DNA of 64,000 nt, from NCBI GenBank assembly GCA_963759225.1, contig CAVWYL010000036.1, positions 77,786-141,785 of the forward strand, given 5' to 3'. The stretch comes from an uncultured Acidimicrobiales bacterium (GTDB lineage Bacteria > Actinomycetota > Acidimicrobiia > Acidimicrobiales > VFJN01). Positions within the stretch are counted from its first letter, which is position 1. Each line of letters starts with the position of its first letter. Below the pieces are notes generated by a model. It worked only from the letters and a program-made list of their open reading frames with translations, had not been told where the DNA came from and searched no databases. Position numbers and translations under genes: made by a program. This document shows, one piece after another, positions 2,836 to 56,368 of the stretch.

Positions 2836-4240
2836 ATGACCGCCACCGTCTTCCCGGCGGGTCTCTACCGGACCGCCGTCCGCCGCGACGCGTTCGCACG
2901 GCGGGCACGGTTCGACCCGGCCTGGATGGTGGGCGCGTTCATCACGGTGCTGCTCGTCATCCCGTCGCCGCTCGTGGTCGGGCCGCTCGGCGGGGCGGGC
3001 GCCCCGGCGGTGATGCTGGCCCTCTTCTGCCTGGCCTGGTGGGCGTGCGCGCGGTCCGTGCCGAGCGGCATGGCCTGGGGCTTCAACCCCATCCGCTGGG
3101 CCGTGATCGGGTTCACGCTCGCCATGATGGCCGGGTTCGGGGCGGGTGCCCTCCACCCGCTTGCAGGGCATCCAGGTCACCAGCTCGGACCGGACGCTGC
3201 TCATCCTGCTGGGCTTCTCCGGCATCACGCTGCTGGCCGCCGACGGGATCGGCTCGCTCGAGCAGCTCAACAAGGCCATCCGGCGCCTGGTCGACATCAC
3301 GGCCGGGCTGGCGGCGGCCGGGATCCTGCAGTTCTACACCGGCACCGACATCGCCGGGTTCATCAGCATCCCCGGGCTGACGCCGGCCATCGTGCCGACC
3401 GACGTGTTCGCCCTGGAACAGCGGGGCAACCTGCGGCGGGTGGTGGCGACCGCGTCGCACCCGATCGAGTTCGGGGTGGTGATGGCCATCGTCCTGCCGA
3501 TCGCCCTCCACCTGGCGCTCACGGCCACCGCGGAGGAGAAGCGGGCCCGCTGGATCTGCGTGGGGCTGATCGGCGTCGCCGCCCCCCTGTCGCTCGCACG
3601 CTCGGCGATCCTCGGCGTGCTGTGCGGGATGCTGATGCTCTGGTGCGGCTGGTCCTGGGAGCGCAAGAAGGCGGCCATCAAGATCACGCTCGCCTACATC
3701 GTCGGGATGCGGCTCCTCGTCGACGGCCTGCTGGGGACGATCCGGGGCATGTTCGTCAACATGTTCAACGACCCGAGCTACCAGGGCCGGACGATGGACT
3801 ACAGCAAGATCGGCGAGATGTTCGGCCAGCGGCCCTGGTTCGGCCACGGCCTCGGGACCTTCGACCCCCGCATCTACTTCTTCCTCGACAACCAGTACCT
3901 GGGCACGCTGGTCGAGACCGGGCTGGTCGGTCTCGTGTCGATGATCGCGCTGTTCCTGGTCGGCCTGTTCACCGCCCGCAGCGTCCACCGCATGTGCCGC
4001 AACGCCGGCCTCACCAAGCTGGGCGAGCTGGGGCGGGCGCTGGCGGCCTCCATGTTCGTCGTCATCACCAGCTTCATCACCTTCGACGCCCTCGGCTTCC
4101 GGATGGTGGCCGGGCTGCTGTTCGTCGTGCTCGGCCTCATCGGGGCCGCCTGGCGGATCGCCCGCGTCGAGTCGAGCCGCCTGACCTGGCACCCCCGCGA
4201 CGACGCGTCGATGCGGGTGGCGAGGGTGACCCCCCGATGA
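2836..4240 (+). CDS. O-antigen polymerase/ligase family (Wzy-like) polytopic membrane protein; one frame break
   Basis: From ATG 2836, MTATVFPAGLYRTAV..AWMVGAFITVLLVIPSPLVVGPLGG runs to about 3143. ORF 3146..4240 then continues (..ASHPIEFGVVMAIVLPIALHLAL..SLARSAILGV..FGHGLGTF..DNQYLGTLVETGLVGL..). The protein has many TM helices plus the Wzy_C-type loop. The frames rejoin if one G is dropped from GGG 3144-3146. Confidence 0.7.
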
Positions 4241-5077: not shown

Positions 5078-6181
5078 TCACCGCCGGTCGTCGATGCTGC
5101 AGGGCGCCTCGCCCACCACCCCGGTGATCTGGTAGTTGGCGTCGATCGTCACCAGGTCGTTGCCCTCGCAAACGAGATTCAGGGCGCCGGCGTCGACGAA
5201 GTAGAGCGGCCCGTAGTCGTACTCGCCGTTGACGACGTGGTTGTTCCTGGCGACGAAGACCGTCGGGACCTCGACCTGGTGGAGCCGGAGCGAGAAGGCG
5301 CCGCCCATGAGGATGTTCTCCTGGACGTCCGCCTCGGGGCTGCTGTCACCGAAGAACACGGCGGCGTTGCCGCAGTTGCCGCGGGCGTCGATCGTGTTGT
5401 GGCGGATGGTCACGTTGCGGCCGCCGCCGTAGCCCTGGACGCCGTCGAGGTGGTTGCACTCGCCCTCCCGCACCGACAGCTTGACGAACGAGTCCTCGAT
5501 GACGATGTCGTCGCCCGACACCCGGAACCCGTCGGTCACGTTGTGGATCTCGACGCGGCGTGCGGTGTAGCCGGCGGTGCCGACCGAGCCGTGGCCCCAG
5601 TTCAGGATCGCCGGAGTCGGGTCCCACCTCGACGTCCTCGATGAGGAGCCCGCCGAACTGCTCGTCGTCGTCCCACTGGTTCCAGATGATCCCCATCACC
5701 CGGGTGCGGCGCACCGTCACGCCGGTGGCCCGGATCTGCAGGTCGCCGGTGATCAGCAGGTCCTCGATGACCGTGCCCGCGTCGTAGACCCACAGGTCGC
5801 CCTCGTGGACGCCGGCCGGCGTCCAGCCTGCCGGCACGCCGGTCGTGGCCGGGTTGGGGTGGGTGCCCGGCCGGTAGGACGGCGCGGCCGCGGCCTCCTC
5901 GGCCGGTGGCGCGACGGTCGTGGGGGTGGGGGCGGCGGCGGGCGCGCCCGGTGCGCACCACCGGGCGCCGGGCGCACCCAGCACCGGGGCCCGCGGTGGT
6001 AGCCGCCCGCGCTGGCGGGCGGCGTCTGGGCCGCGTCCCGGGCGGACGCCGCCGGCGCCGCCCGCCGACCGACGCCCGAGGCCCCGTCGCCGACCATGGC
6101 GACCACGGCGATCGGCACGAGGAGGGCGGCGACGGCGATCGCCACCGTGCGGACGGGGCCGCGGGATGAGATTCGATTCAT
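5078..6181 (-). CDS. Secreted right-handed parallel beta-helix (pectate-lyase-fold) repeat protein; frame broken at least twice
   Basis: ATG 6181 opens MNRISSRGPVRTVAIAVAALLVPIAVVAMVG (signal/TM). The middle lies in ORF 5346..5984 (..DLWVYDAGTVIEDLLITGDLQIRATGVTVRRTRVMGIIWNQW..LLIEDVEVGP). The C-terminus lies in ORF 5078..5539 (IVIEDSFVKLSV..GRNVTIRHNTIDARGNCGNAAVFFG..ARNNHVVNG). The periodic hydrophobic/Asn turns are typical of beta-helix repeats. Confidence 0.55.
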
Positions 6182-27700: not shown

Positions 27701-27716
27701 TTGACCCCTGGGTCAA
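27701..27716. promoter_or_regulatory. Perfect 16-bp palindrome TTGACCCCTGGGTCAA in the hydrolase/TetR divergent spacer (candidate TetR operator)
   Basis: The 7-bp arms TTGACCC/GGGTCAA are perfect. The site lies 30 nt upstream of the TetR ATG and 25 nt upstream of the hydrolase GTG. Confidence 0.5.
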
Positions 27717-28904: not shown

Positions 28905-29297
28905 GTGCCCTACAAGTTCCTGTCCGCTGAGTGGGTCGAGGAAGCCCGCAAGATCCGGGAGGAGCTCGACTCCCCGGCCGCGGCTCCGCAGCCCGTCAAG
29001 ATGAACCTCGTCATCACCGACGTGCCGTTCGACGACGGCACCGTCGACGCTCACATGGACACCACCAGCGGCGAGCTGGTGCTCGACACGGGGCACGTCG
29101 AGGGACCGGACGTGACGGCGACGCTCGACTACGAGACGGCCAAGGCGATGATGGTCGACGCCAACCCGCAGGCCGCCATGCAGGCGTTCATGGCCGGCAA
29201 GATCAAGCTGCAGGGCGACATGACCAAGGCGATGGCGCTGCAGAGCGGCCCGCCGAACCCCGAGCTGACGAAGCGGATCCAGGAGATCACCGAGTAG
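28905..29297 (+). CDS. SCP2 sterol-binding domain protein
   Basis: VPYKFLSAEWVEEARKIRE..MNLVITD..TLDYETAKAMMVDANPQAAMQAFMAGKIKLQGDMTKAMAL is the typical SCP2 C-terminal pattern. The RBS GAGGGGAG precedes GTG 28905. Confidence 0.7.
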   Translation: MPYKFLSAEWVEEARKIREELDSPAAAPQPVKMNLVITDVPFDDGTVDAHMDTTSGELVLDTGHVEGPDVTATLDYETAKAMMVDANPQAAMQAFMAGKIKLQGDMTKAMALQSGPPNPELTKRIQEITE

Positions 29298-29396: not shown

Positions 29397-30221
29397 TCAG
29401 GGCTTCCGGCCGACGCCGCCGTAGTGGAAGCGGCCCTCCGTCGGTCCGTCCGGGTCGCCGGGGCGCCACTCGTCGATCCGCACGATGCCGGGCTCCACCA
29501 GCTCCAGGCCCTCGAAGAAGCGGGCCAGCTCGGCGTGGGTCCGCGAGCGGAACAGGTAGCGGGCCTGGGTCGGCACCGACTGGGTGAGCGCCGCCATCTC
29601 CTCGTTGCGCATGTCGTCGGTCAGGTGGGACAGGGCGAGGTAGCTGCCCGAGGGCACGGCAGAGACCAGGTGGGCCACGTGGCGGTAGGGCTCGGCCTCG
29701 TCGGGGACGTGGTGCAGGACCGCGTTGAGCACGAGCGCCACCGGCTCGGAGAAGTCGAGGTGCTCTGCGGCCTGCCGCACGATGTCCTCGGGCTCTCGCA
29801 GGTCGGCCTGGAGGAAGGCCGTCACGCCCTCCGACGTGCCCGAGAGGAGCACGTGGGCGTGGGCGAGGACGATGGGGTCGTTGTCGACGTAGACGATGCG
29901 CGCCTCGGGCGCCAAGCCCTGGACGACGGCGTGCAGGTTGTCGGCGTTCGGGATGCCGGTGCCGATGTCGAGGAACTGGCGGACGCCGGCCTCGACGGTC
30001 AGGTAGCGGATCACCTGACGGAGGAAGGCCCGGTTGCTCCGCACCGACGCCCGGGCCACGTCGATGCCGCCGACGGCGGCGCCTGCCCGCTCGGCGGCGA
30101 CGTGGTCGGCCTCGAAGTTGGTCACGCCGCCGAGCAGGTAGTCGTAGACACGCGCCTCGTGCGCCACGCTCGTATCGATCACCGGCTCGCCGGCCAACTC
30201 ACCTCTGCGCGGTTCCTGCAC
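29397..30221 (-). CDS. SAM-dependent methyltransferase (actinobacterial DUF574-type)
   Basis: ..ARVYDYLLGGVTNFEADH..NRAFLRQVIRYL..RQFLDIGTGIP..IVYVDNDPIV. An RBS (GGAGGGG) precedes GTG 30221. Confidence 0.75.
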   Translation of the reverse strand: MQEPRRGELAGEPVIDTSVAHEARVYDYLLGGVTNFEADHVAAERAGAAVGGIDVARASVRSNRAFLRQVIRYLTVEAGVRQFLDIGTGIPNADNLHAVVQGLAPEARIVYVDNDPIVLAHAHVLLSGTSEGVTAFLQADLREPEDIVRQAAEHLDFSEPVALVLNAVLHHVPDEAEPYRHVAHLVSAVPSGSYLALSHLTDDMRNEEMAALTQSVPTQARYLFRSRTHAELARFFEGLELVEPGIVRIDEWRPGDPDGPTEGRFHYGGVGRKP

Positions 30222-30464
30222 CCCAGATCCCCTCCAGCGTCATGCCGTATCGGCCCGACCAGTATGGCCCACGGCGGAGCGACCCGAACGCCAGGGTAGC
30301 GCGCCCTGGGCCCGAGGGCCGCGGGGGTGCGCGGCGGGGGCCAAAACAAAGTGTGCCGAGCCTGCTGGGGCGGCAGCCTCATCGCGGCGGCTGGGGAACA
30401 CCGCGTCCGGCATACCGCCCCAACGGGCCCGGCACGCTCCGTAGTTTACTCGCTGCTCACTGCT

Positions 30465-30624
30465 ATGTCAGCTTTCGCCATACAGCCGACATGAAAAACC
30501 TCAGGACGAGGCTCAGCCTTCGGCCGCATGGGGAGAGGCCGATAAGCCCGGAGGGGGTCTCCGGGATAGGGGAAGATTCCCCCGAACCAGGGTCCCTGGT
30601 CAAGACCCAGATCGAGAAATTTTC

Positions 30625-30626
<2 letters not shown>
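30465..30626 (-). ncRNA. Candidate structured RNA: an array of seven near-perfect hairpins. The core 30521-30565 has two C-rich loops and is reminiscent of actinobacterial 6C sRNA
   Basis: Plus-strand coordinates of the hairpins: 30614-30626 (GAGAAA/TTTCTC); 30586-30600 (ACCAGGG/CCCTGGT); 30569-30582 (GGGGAA/TTCCCC); 30547-30565 (7 bp; the minus-strand loop is ACCCC); 30521-30541 (5 bp; the minus-strand loop is UCUCCCCAUGC); 30499-30511 plus a U5 tail on the minus strand; and 30465-30492 (9 bp). The last stem has a G.U pair only when read on the minus strand. The identity of the RNA is not established. Confidence 0.25.
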
Positions 30627-32723
<2,097 letters not shown>

Positions 32724-32843
32724 GGCCACGACGCGAGGATACTGCTTCCCCGCCGCTGGACCCGATCGCGGTGGTGCTGCGACCGTGCCCGCCCGCTCCG
32801 GCTTCGGCTGCCGGGCCCCGGCGTGCCAGGATTGCCGGTCGCC

Positions 32844-35347
<2,504 letters not shown>

Positions 35348-55750: not shown

Positions 55751-56368
55751 GTGCCCCGATCGCTCAGCTCTACGCGAATGGAGGCGTTCAGTGACGGTGT
55801 GTTCTCGATCGCGGCGACACTGCTGGTACTCGACATTGCGCTTGATCCGCCGGGAACGCCGCTGGAGCAAGTGCTCCATGCGTGGCCTGCCTATCTCGGC
55901 TACGTCGTCAGCTTCCTGACGATCGGTGCGGCATGGCTCGGACACAGCGCGATGACCGACCGCCTGGCACACGCAGACTCACTACTCCTTCGCATCAACT
56001 TGCTCCTGCTACTCGTCATCGCGTTCCTTCCATTCCCGACGAGCCTCGTCGCCGACGGAATCGCCGAGGACACCAACGGCGAGCGCGTGTTCGTCACGTT
56101 GTACGGCGTGACGCTGCTCACCATCCGCCTCCTCGGGTACGCCCTCGACGCATACGCCCGACGCGAGCACCTCTACTCGCACGAACAAGCCGACGACCAG
56201 CTGCAGACCGACCGCCGAACGCTGGTGCCCGTTGTCATCAGCTACGTCGGAGCGATCCTTGTCGGGCTCGCCCTACCAACACTCGCAGTCGTCTTGTACT
56301 TCGCCCTCGCCGTGTTCGTCGTGGTGCCGTTTGGCGAAGTTCGGCGGCTCATGTTCAAGCGCTCATGA
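55751..56368 (+). CDS. TMEM175-family (DUF1211) potassium channel
   Basis: ..RMEAFSDGVFSIAATLLVLDI..GYVVSFLTIGAAWLGH..INLLLLLVIAFLPFPT. The start is GTG 55751 or ATG 55778. GC is about 60%. Confidence 0.75.
   Translation: MPRSLSSTRMEAFSDGVFSIAATLLVLDIALDPPGTPLEQVLHAWPAYLGYVVSFLTIGAAWLGHSAMTDRLAHADSLLLRINLLLLLVIAFLPFPTSLVADGIAEDTNGERVFVTLYGVTLLTIRLLGYALDAYARREHLYSHEQADDQLQTDRRTLVPVVISYVGAILVGLALPTLAVVLYFALAVFVVVPFGEVRRLMFKRS

What the first reader, a model, noticed from the sequence alone, without database searches (positions are those of the whole stretch)
30222..30626. The 400-nt spacer after pknB is packed with seven consecutive near-perfect hairpins and has lower GC
Between the kinase stop (30625) and the methyltransferase start (30221) lie seven stems of different sequence (see the feature at 30465-30626). 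Two adjacent stems have C-rich loops on the minus strand (ACCCC and UCUCCCCAUGC). One short stem is followed by U5 on the minus strand. The 9-bp stem at 30465-30492 pairs fully only as minus-strand RNA, through a G.U pair; read on the plus strand the same position is an A-C mismatch.

The first stem (GAGAAATTTTCTC) overlaps the kinase stop codon. Further downstream, a long-range GGGGCGG...CCGCCCC pairing lies at about 30368-30424.

The two C-loop hairpins resemble actinobacterial 6C sRNA, but the C-runs are shorter than I remember for that family. The region could instead be a new sRNA, a 3'-UTR-derived RNA or a 5' leader of the methyltransferase.
Basis: seen in the sequence. Interest (0 to 1): 0.6.

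Follow-up and report, generated by a model that had tools for sequence, protein, structure and literature searches.

The report
Two tandem small-RNA genes after kinase
The spacer after the cell-wall-sensing kinase gene of this uncultured Acidimicrobiales bacterium most likely holds two small RNA genes in a row, each with its own promoter and cytosine-rich loops. Neither matches any catalogued RNA family, so they are candidate new regulators in a poorly studied lineage.

Summary
The hairpins are real. The minus-strand RNA of the spacer folds far better than shuffles (z -6.5, against -3.0 for the plus strand). GC falls to 64-65% from 71-76% in the flanks.

Only window 30343-30624 is conserved. 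It is 79-96% identical in DNA in 23 of 24 genomes of the genus, although the kinase C-terminus is only 38-78% identical in protein.

I read the conserved part as two tandem minus-strand sRNA genes:
- **sRNA-1 (~75 nt).** A predicted promoter (TTGACC-N18-GAATCT) is followed by two hairpins with C-rich loops and a short hairpin with a U run. This is the layout of 6C RNA.
- **sRNA-2 (~95 nt).** A second promoter (CTGACA-N17-TAAACT) is followed by one long hairpin. It has an invariant apical loop UUCCCCAGC and an invariant GGA/AUGA internal loop.

Both structures covary strongly. sRNA-2 occurs in several Acidimicrobiales families, usually downstream of a PASTA kinase. A -10 hexamer lies just upstream in 70 of 72 loci.

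There is no Rfam match to 6C, 6S or any other family. The 5'-leader reading is refuted. The first three "hairpins" overlie promoter 1, and the last 120 nt are not conserved.

The likely function, by analogy with 6C, is pairing of the C-rich loops with G-rich ribosome-binding sites.

The parts
30625..30627 (-). Stop codon (TGA) of the PASTA Ser/Thr kinase gene
   Evidence: ORF 30625-31572 ends here and its last 57 residues are a PASTA domain. Read directly.
30614..30626 (-). It may act as an UP-like tract. This is inferred.
   Evidence: Sequence. In alignment A1 only the A/T-richness is partly kept, not the stem.
30598..30603 (-). Promoter 1, -35 hexamer TTGACC
   Evidence: CTTGACC is invariant in 18 genomes of the genus (A1 invariant columns C37-C43).
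30574..30579 (-). Promoter 1, putative -10 hexamer GAATCT, 18 nt after the -35. It is weak by the E. coli consensus.
   Evidence: The A at position 2 and the T at position 6 are invariant (A63, T67 in A1). The consensus scan did not call it, so this promoter is inferred.
30493..30569 (-). sRNA-1, about 75 nt. Hairpin 1 is 30547-30565 (loop ACCCC). Hairpin 2 is 30520-30542 (loop UCUCCCCAUGC). Hairpin 3 is 30497-30513, with the U run at 30494-30498.
   Evidence: Fold z -3.07. All 24 distinct homologues fold alone into the same three hairpins with C-rich loops. Model R2 matches here at 86.5 bits. 14 of 18 pairs show compensatory changes and 91.7% of cells are paired.
30466..30471 (-). Promoter 2, -35 hexamer CTGACA.
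   Evidence: Called by the promoter scan (1 site found, 0.1 expected). GCTGACA is invariant in A1.
30443..30448 (-). Promoter 2, -10 hexamer TAAACT, with a 17-nt spacer
   Evidence: A TANNNT hexamer lies within 24 nt upstream of the hairpin in 70 of 72 distinct loci, against 1 of 72 in control windows.
30343..30437 (-). sRNA-2, about 95 nt. It is one long hairpin (30351-30437) followed by UUUGUUUU (30343-30350).
   Evidence: Fold -65.8 kcal/mol, z -6.59, against -4.62 for the plus strand. 34 pairs, 16 of them with compensatory changes, 97.2% of cells paired, covariation 0.375 against 0.189 for shuffles and at most 0.083 for slid controls.
30390..30398 (-). Apical loop UUCCCCAGC of sRNA-2, the third C-rich loop of the locus
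   Evidence: All nine loop positions are invariant in 54 distinct sequences (T40-C48 in A2). YUCCCCAGC is kept even where the stem below it has changed on both sides.
30379..30408 (-). Invariant asymmetric internal loop of sRNA-2: GGA at 30406-30408 opposite AUGA at 30379-30382. It looks kink-turn-like, with possible tandem G.A pairs. This is inferred.
   Evidence: GGAC and GAUGAGGC are invariant or nearly so in A2 and in the order-wide pattern matches.
30222..30342 (-). Non-conserved tail of the spacer, probably the promoter and leader of the methyltransferase gene that in this genome sits between sRNA-2 and the SCP2-like gene
   Evidence: BLAST identity stops at query position about 292-311 in all relatives. 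The methyltransferase was not found in relatives' loci. The SCP2 gene is at 28905-29297 on the plus strand.

Best explanation
The conserved part of the spacer (window 30343-30624, minus strand) holds two tandem, independently transcribed small-RNA genes.

sRNA-1 (about 75 nt) starts about 7 nt after a promoter with an invariant TTGACC -35. It folds into two hairpins that present C-rich loops (ACCCC and UCUCCCC). It ends in a short hairpin followed by a U run.

sRNA-2 (about 95 nt) starts at the base of a long hairpin, directly after a CTGACA-N17-TAAACT promoter. It presents an invariant loop UUCCCCAGC on top of a stem that carries an invariant GGA/AUGA internal loop.

Most likely both act in trans. 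Their C-rich loops would pair with G-rich ribosome-binding sites of mRNAs and block translation, as shown for actinobacterial 6C RNA.

Shown here: conservation, structure, strand and promoter-like motifs. Inferred: transcription start sites, termination, targets and mode of action.
For: - **Conservation above the neighbouring gene.** The spacer block is 79-96% identical in DNA in 23 of 24 genomes of the genus, while the adjacent kinase C-terminus is 38-78% identical in protein.
- **sRNA-2 structure.** 16 of 34 pairs have compensatory changes and 97.2% of cells are paired. No shuffle reaches the covariation score, and slid controls reach at most 0.083 against 0.375. Further stem variants turned up in the order-wide scan.
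- **Strand.** G.U pairs are frequent in four columns of sRNA-2. The fold z-score is -6.59 on the minus strand against -4.62 on the plus strand.
- **sRNA-1 structure.** All 24 distinct homologues fold alone into the same three hairpins with C-rich loops. 14 of 18 pairs are compensatory on a model-guided alignment.
- **Promoters.** The scan calls CTGACA-17-TAAACT, with 1 site found and 0.1 expected. TANNNT lies just upstream of the sRNA-2 hairpin in 70 of 72 loci against 1 of 72 in controls, and 23 of these carry a TG extension. CTTGACC and the A and T of the -10 of promoter 1 are invariant.
- **sRNA-2 stands alone.** In other families it occurs without sRNA-1. It is followed by a convergent SCP2 gene (45 loci) or by an MFS gene that has its own promoter and palindrome (24 loci).
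- **Precedent for the mechanism.** The C-rich loops of 6C pair with G-rich RBS sequences without a chaperone (PMC6486639).
Against: - There are no expression data.
- The -10 of promoter 1 (GAATCT) is poor and the scan did not call it. No canonical intrinsic terminator passed the scan.
- Many sRNA-2 homologues lack a U run.
- The complement of the sRNA-2 loop (GGCTGGGGAA) is not enriched before start codons in the genome.
- sRNA-2 is nearly invariant over its whole upper half, stems included. That is more than a seed-pairing sRNA needs and points to a protein or tertiary contact.
- The sRNA-1 covariation was counted on an alignment fitted to the model.
Confidence: 0.6

Rival explanations
1. sRNA-2 is not a base-pairing regulator but a protein-binding or scaffold RNA. 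The invariant GGA/AUGA loop would form a kink-turn-like tandem G.A motif, and the invariant apical loop would be a protein or RNA docking site. Its function might be tied to PASTA-kinase signalling.
For: The upper half of the hairpin is invariant across families while the lower stem covaries freely. No target enrichment was found for the loop complement. A PASTA kinase lies upstream in 60 of 80 loci across several families.
Against: The internal loop has a 2-nt rather than 3-nt bulge plus an extra G, so it is not a textbook kink-turn (read). No candidate partner protein was identified. The loop carries the same CCCC motif as the two sRNA-1 loops.
Confidence: 0.25
2. The block is one long transcript of about 225 nt, or the 3' UTR of the kinase mRNA, later processed into pieces. 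The promoter-like motifs would be incidental, or would only add to read-through transcription.
For: There is no terminator between the kinase stop and promoter 1, which begins 22 nt later. The sRNA-1 terminator hairpin is short at 4-6 bp. The promoter 2 spacer is itself invariant, which is unusual for a mere promoter. The link to the kinase gene is conserved.
Against: sRNA-2 occurs alone, with a -10 hexamer at a fixed distance, in families that lack sRNA-1, and sometimes with an SDR gene between it and the kinase. The TTGACC of promoter 1 is invariant although it lies in non-coding DNA.
Confidence: 0.12
3. sRNA-1 is a diverged true member of the 6C family (Rfam RF01066).
For: Both come from the same phylum. 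The length is similar (75-80 nt against a 75-position model). Both have two C-rich-loop hairpins before a 3' hairpin.
Against: There is no 6C match at the gathering score on the window, at E<=10 on 1051 nt or on 91 nt, or in the whole genome. The C runs are 4-6 long. The gene context is different.
Confidence: 0.08
4. The spacer is a 5' leader or riboswitch of the downstream methyltransferase, or merely DNA-level hairpins such as terminators or repeats.
For: The methyltransferase is co-directional in this genome.
Against: The methyltransferase was not found in the loci of any of the 19 relatives that keep the RNA block. The 120 nt next to it are not conserved. The block is single-copy in the genome. 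G.U pairs and promoters argue for RNA. The pattern is absent from viral contigs.
Confidence: 0.03

Closest known systems
6C sRNA (Rfam RF01066; B11/ncRv13660c of Mycobacterium tuberculosis)
   Same: A small actinobacterial RNA of about 75-90 nt with C-rich single-stranded hairpin loops. Those loops pair with G-rich RBS regions without Hfq or ProQ (PMC6486639). sRNA-1 has the same layout of two C-loop hairpins and a 3' hairpin.
   Different: The covariance model gives no match at any threshold tried. The C runs are shorter, at 4-6. The genomic context differs: it lies after a PASTA kinase. It is followed by a second, unrelated conserved RNA.
RoxS/RsaE and other C-rich-motif sRNAs of Firmicutes (from my own knowledge)
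   Same: Several exposed CCCC motifs that target Shine-Dalgarno sequences, and a Rho-independent-type 3' end.
   Different: They come from another phylum with no sequence or model similarity. RoxS is controlled by ResD/Rex. No regulator is known here.
Ms1 / 6S RNA (RNA-polymerase-binding RNAs)
   Same: Highly conserved, abundant-type non-coding RNAs of Actinomycetota that Rfam models often miss. I considered them because of the strong conservation.
   Different: Ms1 and 6S are rods of 180-300 nt with a central bubble. Ms1 lies between a HAD-IB hydrolase gene and an oxidoreductase gene (PMC9130861). Here there are two short RNAs of other shapes in another context.
Kink-turn motifs (for example the U4 snRNA 5' stem-loop and box C/D RNAs; from my own knowledge)
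   Same: sRNA-2 has CGAUGAGG opposite CCGGAC, which resembles AAUGAGG/CCGAGG of U4 and the C-box UGAUGA. Tandem G.A pairs next to a bulge are possible.
   Different: The bulge has 2 nt rather than 3, and there is an extra G on the other strand. No L7Ae-type partner was examined. This is a resemblance only.

Membership tests
6C sRNA (RF01066) | Match to the Rfam covariance model at or above the gathering score (47 bits) | tested here: not met
   No match on the window at the gathering score, at E<=10 on 1051 nt or on 91 nt, or in the whole genome. The genome-wide search is weak: its C. glutamicum control stayed below the cut-off.
6C sRNA (RF01066) | Two adjacent hairpins whose loops are C-rich | tested here: met
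   The loops are ACCCC and UCUCCCCAUGC in the window. The same holds in all 24 distinct homologues.
6C sRNA (RF01066) | At least six conserved cytosines in each loop (the origin of the name; recalled from memory) | tested here: not met
   The C runs are 4-6 long. In the window they are 5 (CCCCC, counting the closing C) and 4.
Ms1 RNA | Conserved synteny between a HAD-IB hydrolase/phosphoserine phosphatase gene and an oxidoreductase gene (PMC9130861) | tested here: not met
   The flanks are a PASTA kinase and, in relatives, an SCP2-like gene, ferredoxin, TetR, or SDR and MFS genes.
6S RNA (RF00013) | Rfam model match, and a rod of about 180 nt with a central bubble | tested here: not met
   No match in the window or the genome. 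The folds are a three-hairpin RNA and a 95-nt hairpin.
Bacterial small SRP RNA (RF00169) | Rfam model match at this locus | tested here: not met
   The genome's SRP RNA lies on another contig (C4:13009-13107, 68.7 bits). There is none in the window.
Promoter-driven trans-acting sRNA gene (the kind, not a family) | Its own promoter directly upstream, conserved across relatives | tested here: met
   Promoter 2 is called by the scan. TANNNT is present in 70 of 72 loci against 1 of 72 controls. The promoter 1 -35 is invariant, but its -10 is weak.
Promoter-driven trans-acting sRNA gene (the kind, not a family) | Intrinsic terminator at the 3' end | tested here: inconclusive
   No site passed the scan's criteria. 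sRNA-1 has a 4-7-bp hairpin with a run of 3-6 U in all homologues. The sRNA-2 U run is present in the window but missing in many relatives.
Promoter-driven trans-acting sRNA gene (the kind, not a family) | A discrete transcript is detected | not testable with these tools
Kink-turn motif | A canonical stem, a 3-nt bulge, then tandem sheared G.A pairs | tested here: inconclusive
   An invariant GGA/AUGA loop lies between a 7-bp and a 3-bp stem. That allows tandem G.A pairs but with a 2-nt bulge.

The most novel reading that the evidence does not exclude
sRNA-2 is a new class of structured RNA of Acidimicrobiales. Its invariant kink-turn-like loop and UUCCCCAGC apex would bind a protein or the ribosome, and it would be functionally coupled to PASTA-kinase (cell-wall and division) signalling. 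It would not be an ordinary seed-pairing sRNA.
Probability: 0.2. Interest if true: 0.75.

Novelty: new member of a known kind. Interest (0 to 1): 0.55.

Why it matters
Acidimicrobiales are abundant in soil and water, are mostly uncultured, and have no described small RNAs in the literature searched.

This locus offers two well-supported candidate RNA families that Rfam 15 lacks. One has the 6C layout and would carry the C-rich-loop principle of chaperone-free regulation into a deep actinobacterial branch. The other is nearly invariant across several families and is genetically linked to the PASTA kinase. That link gives a concrete handle on post-transcriptional control near cell-wall signalling.

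Both could be added to annotation pipelines at once, using the covariance models built here.

Tried and rejected
- **Rfam.** I ran a gathering scan of the whole window and E<=10 scans of 1051, 91 and 108 nt. They gave only far-sub-threshold miRNA-precursor or chance hits.
- **6C, 6S and SRP in the genome.** Only SRP was found, and it lies elsewhere.
- **Ms1.** Rejected on synteny and shape.
- **Repeat or mobile element.** The block is single-copy in the genome and absent from viral contigs.
- **Small protein.** The 57-aa ORF at 30240-30413 starts at an AUG that other families lack, and the changes are compensatory in stems rather than synonymous.
- **Leader of the MFS gene in other families.** Rejected, because that gene has its own TTGACCCGCGGGTCAA palindrome and -10 between it and the hairpin.
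- **TetR-operator reading of promoter 1.** The palindrome at 27701-27716 shares only TTGACC with it, and the pattern search was at chance level.
- **Plain MAFFT alignment of sRNA-1.** It gave no consensus fold because the loops vary in length. A covariance-model alignment was needed.
- **Class-wide search with model R1.** It was insensitive, with only 28 candidates scored per genome. I used a pattern scan instead.
- **Target search with the loop-3 complement.** No enrichment.
- **Context of the paralogous sRNA-2 copies.** Uninformative.

Full report
**Observation**

- the kinase stop TGA at 30625-30627, inside the palindrome GAGAAAATTTCTC
- stems at GACCAGGGACCCUGGUU and GGGGGAAUCUUCCCC
- two hairpins with loops ACCCC (30547-30565) and UCUCCCCAUGC (30520-30542)
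- a short stem followed by U5 (30494-30513)
- a 9-bp stem at 30465-30492 with one G.U pair
- a long hairpin built around GGGGCGG...CCGCCCC

As minus-strand RNA the 419-nt spacer folds at -236 kcal/mol (z -6.46, 0 of 100 shuffles). The plus strand reaches z -3.02. GC is 64-65.5% at 30400-30699 against 71-76.5% on either side. The flanking genes are a PASTA Ser/Thr kinase and a Methyltransf_19 protein.

**What is conserved**

The spacer is single-copy in its genome. In 23 of 24 genomes of the same genus, a block matching window 30349-30624 is 79-96% identical in DNA. The kinase C-terminus next to it is only 38-78% identical in protein. The methyltransferase was not found in the loci of any of the 19 relatives. 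The 120 nt next to the methyltransferase (30222-30342) are not conserved.

In this window the SCP2-like gene is at 28905-29297 on the plus strand. It is the gene that follows the block, convergently, in most relatives. The methyltransferase is therefore a local insertion, and the leader hypothesis fails.

**Anatomy**

Alignment A1 of 18 genomes shows two promoter-like units.

- **Unit 1.** It has an invariant CTTGACC (-35 at 30598-30603). After 18 nt comes a hexamer whose A and T, at the positions of the critical -11A and -7T, are invariant (GAATCT, 30574-30579). About 7 nt downstream begins sRNA-1 (30493-30569), which has two C-loop hairpins and a short hairpin with a U run.
- **Unit 2.** It is the nearly invariant stretch GCTGACATAGCTGTGAGCAGCGACTAAACT. 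The consensus scan calls it CTGACA-17-TAAACT, with 1 site found and 0.1 expected. Its 5' arm is not conserved beyond the nearest relatives. The transcript would start at the base of the long hairpin, sRNA-2 (30343-30437).

**Structure support**

*sRNA-2.*
- I scanned one genome per prokaryote species for the core GTTCCCCAGCCRCCGYGAKGAGGC. It returned 84 stretches, all from Acidimicrobiia or Acidimicrobiales MAGs.
- The 54 distinct hairpins (A2) give a consensus of 34 pairs, 16 of them with compensatory changes.
- 97.2% of cells are paired. The covariation score is 0.375, against 0.189 for shuffles (0 of 500 reach it) and at most 0.083 for slid partners.
- G.U pairs dominate or are frequent in four columns. 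Together with the z-scores (-6.59 against -4.62), this assigns the RNA to the minus strand.
- The lower stem changes freely between families (GUGCCGGGCC, CGUCGUUCCC, GUGCCCGACU, CACAGGGUCC).
- The apical loop UUCCCCAGC, the GGA/AUGA internal loop and the GGGGYGG/CCRCCCC helix are invariant or nearly so.
- A looser scan of 401 genomes of the order found 26 carriers and no control hits. It added more compensatory variants of the top stem (GCGACG/CGTCGC, GUGAUG/CAUCGC, GCAGUG/CACUGC).

*sRNA-1.*
- Plain alignment failed because the loop lengths vary.
- Each of 24 distinct homologues nevertheless folds on its own into the same three hairpins with C-rich first and second loops.
- A covariance model from six close sequences found 41 matches, one per locus.
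- On the resulting alignment, 91.7% of cells pair, against 76.5% for shuffles. 14 of 18 pairs have compensatory changes. The covariation score is 0.326, against 0.108 for shuffles and at most 0.074 for slid partners.
- The caveat is that this alignment is fitted to the model.

**Distribution and context**

- sRNA-1 was found once per genome. It was in 7 of 10 sampled genomes of the genus and 1 of 10 of a sister genus.
- sRNA-2 is wider but patchy. It was found in 7 of 8 sampled genomes of the family and in a handful of other families of the order. It was not found in viral contigs.
- In 60 of 80 loci a PASTA-kinase gene lies upstream on the same strand, either directly or with an SDR gene in between. 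Pfam confirms PASTA in three of these from other families.
- Downstream lies a convergent SCP2-like gene (45 loci) or an MFS gene (24 loci). The MFS gene has its own TTGACCCGCGGGTCAA palindrome and -10 between it and the hairpin.
- A TANNNT hexamer lies within 24 nt upstream of the hairpin in 70 of 72 distinct loci, against 1 of 72 in control windows. 23 of these have a TG extension.
- sRNA-2 is therefore a transcription unit of its own, also where sRNA-1 is absent.
- A few genomes carry extra, more diverged copies in unrelated spacers.

**Comparison with known families**

- Rfam 15 gives nothing at the gathering score for the whole window.
- Permissive scans of 1051, 91 and 108 nt list only miRNA-precursor-like or chance hits far below threshold, and no 6C.
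- The genome has its SRP RNA elsewhere and has no 6C or 6S match.
- Ms1 is excluded by its defining synteny and by shape.
- sRNA-1 therefore works like 6C in layout but fails the membership test. sRNA-2 has no counterpart.
- The held literature has no paper on sRNAs of this order.
- An earlier first-stage note of this scan (e1-2250620) independently flagged a candidate sRNA with a promoter in the gap between the PASTA kinase and SCP2 genes of another genome.

**Mechanism**

All three exposed loops carry CCCC. H1 together with its 3' arm reads CCCCUCC, the complement of a GGAGGGG Shine-Dalgarno sequence. For 6C it was shown that such loops pair with G-rich RBS regions and repress translation without a chaperone (PMC6486639). 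I take this as the most likely mode of action.

It is inferred, not shown. A search for the complement of the sRNA-2 loop before start codons showed no enrichment. The near-invariance of the whole upper half of sRNA-2, and its kink-turn-like GGA/AUGA loop, leave a protein-binding role as a serious rival.

**Limits**

The -10 of promoter 1 is weak, and no terminator passed the scan. Transcript ends are predictions.

**Verdict**

Its best reading is two new, conserved, structured small-RNA genes of a known kind (C-rich-loop sRNAs) in Acidimicrobiales. The second has unusual conservation and a link to PASTA kinases that deserve an experiment.

Noticed in passing
window 30625-32723 (minus strand): The PASTA kinase is split over two reading frames. 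ORF 30792-34103 holds the kinase domain and a PASTA domain. The last PASTA domain and the stop lie in ORF 30625-31572. This is either a frameshift or an assembly error in the PASTA region, also noted in e1-3570872.
   Followed up: partly
window 27701-27716; loci L035, L044, L051, L059, L067, L068, L075, L088, L089 downstream of sRNA-2: A 16-bp palindrome TTGACCCCTGGGTCAA lies before the TetR gene of the window. A near-identical palindrome, TTGACCCGCGGGTCAA, overlaps the -35 of the MFS transporter gene that follows sRNA-2 in other families. This is probably a shared TetR-type operator.
   Followed up: partly
window 29397-30221 and 28905-29297: The Methyltransf_19 gene lies between sRNA-2 and the convergent SCP2-like gene only in this genome. 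It was not found in the loci fetched from 19 relatives, so it looks like a local insertion.
   Followed up: partly
L053, L090, L094 (Microthrixaceae-labelled MAGs), between the kinase stop and sRNA-2: There are tandem copies of a unit of about 25 nt (GCCGGCGACCGCTGGGCCATCCT-like) in the spacer upstream of the sRNA-2 promoter.
   Followed up: no
L030 (about 4060-4190) and L102 (about 5820-5950): Extra diverged copies of the sRNA-2 hairpin lie in unrelated spacers (permease/aldo-keto reductase, and after an MMPL gene). Each is preceded by a C-rich stretch or C-loop hairpin and has no TANNNT hexamer. They may be fused sRNA-1-like and sRNA-2-like paralogues.
   Followed up: partly
L041, L065, L076 upstream of sRNA-2: In these genomes the TTGACC promoter upstream of sRNA-2 is followed by a different, longer conserved sequence of about 190 nt that includes CCAGGAGGUUU, instead of sRNA-1. 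The first gene of the tandem appears to be exchangeable.
   Followed up: no
genome contig C6, about 55900-55945: The only plausible RBS-type match to the sRNA-2 loop complement is GAGGAGCTGGGGAACGTCTGATG, at a stop/start junction before a 302-aa ORF of unknown function.
   Followed up: no
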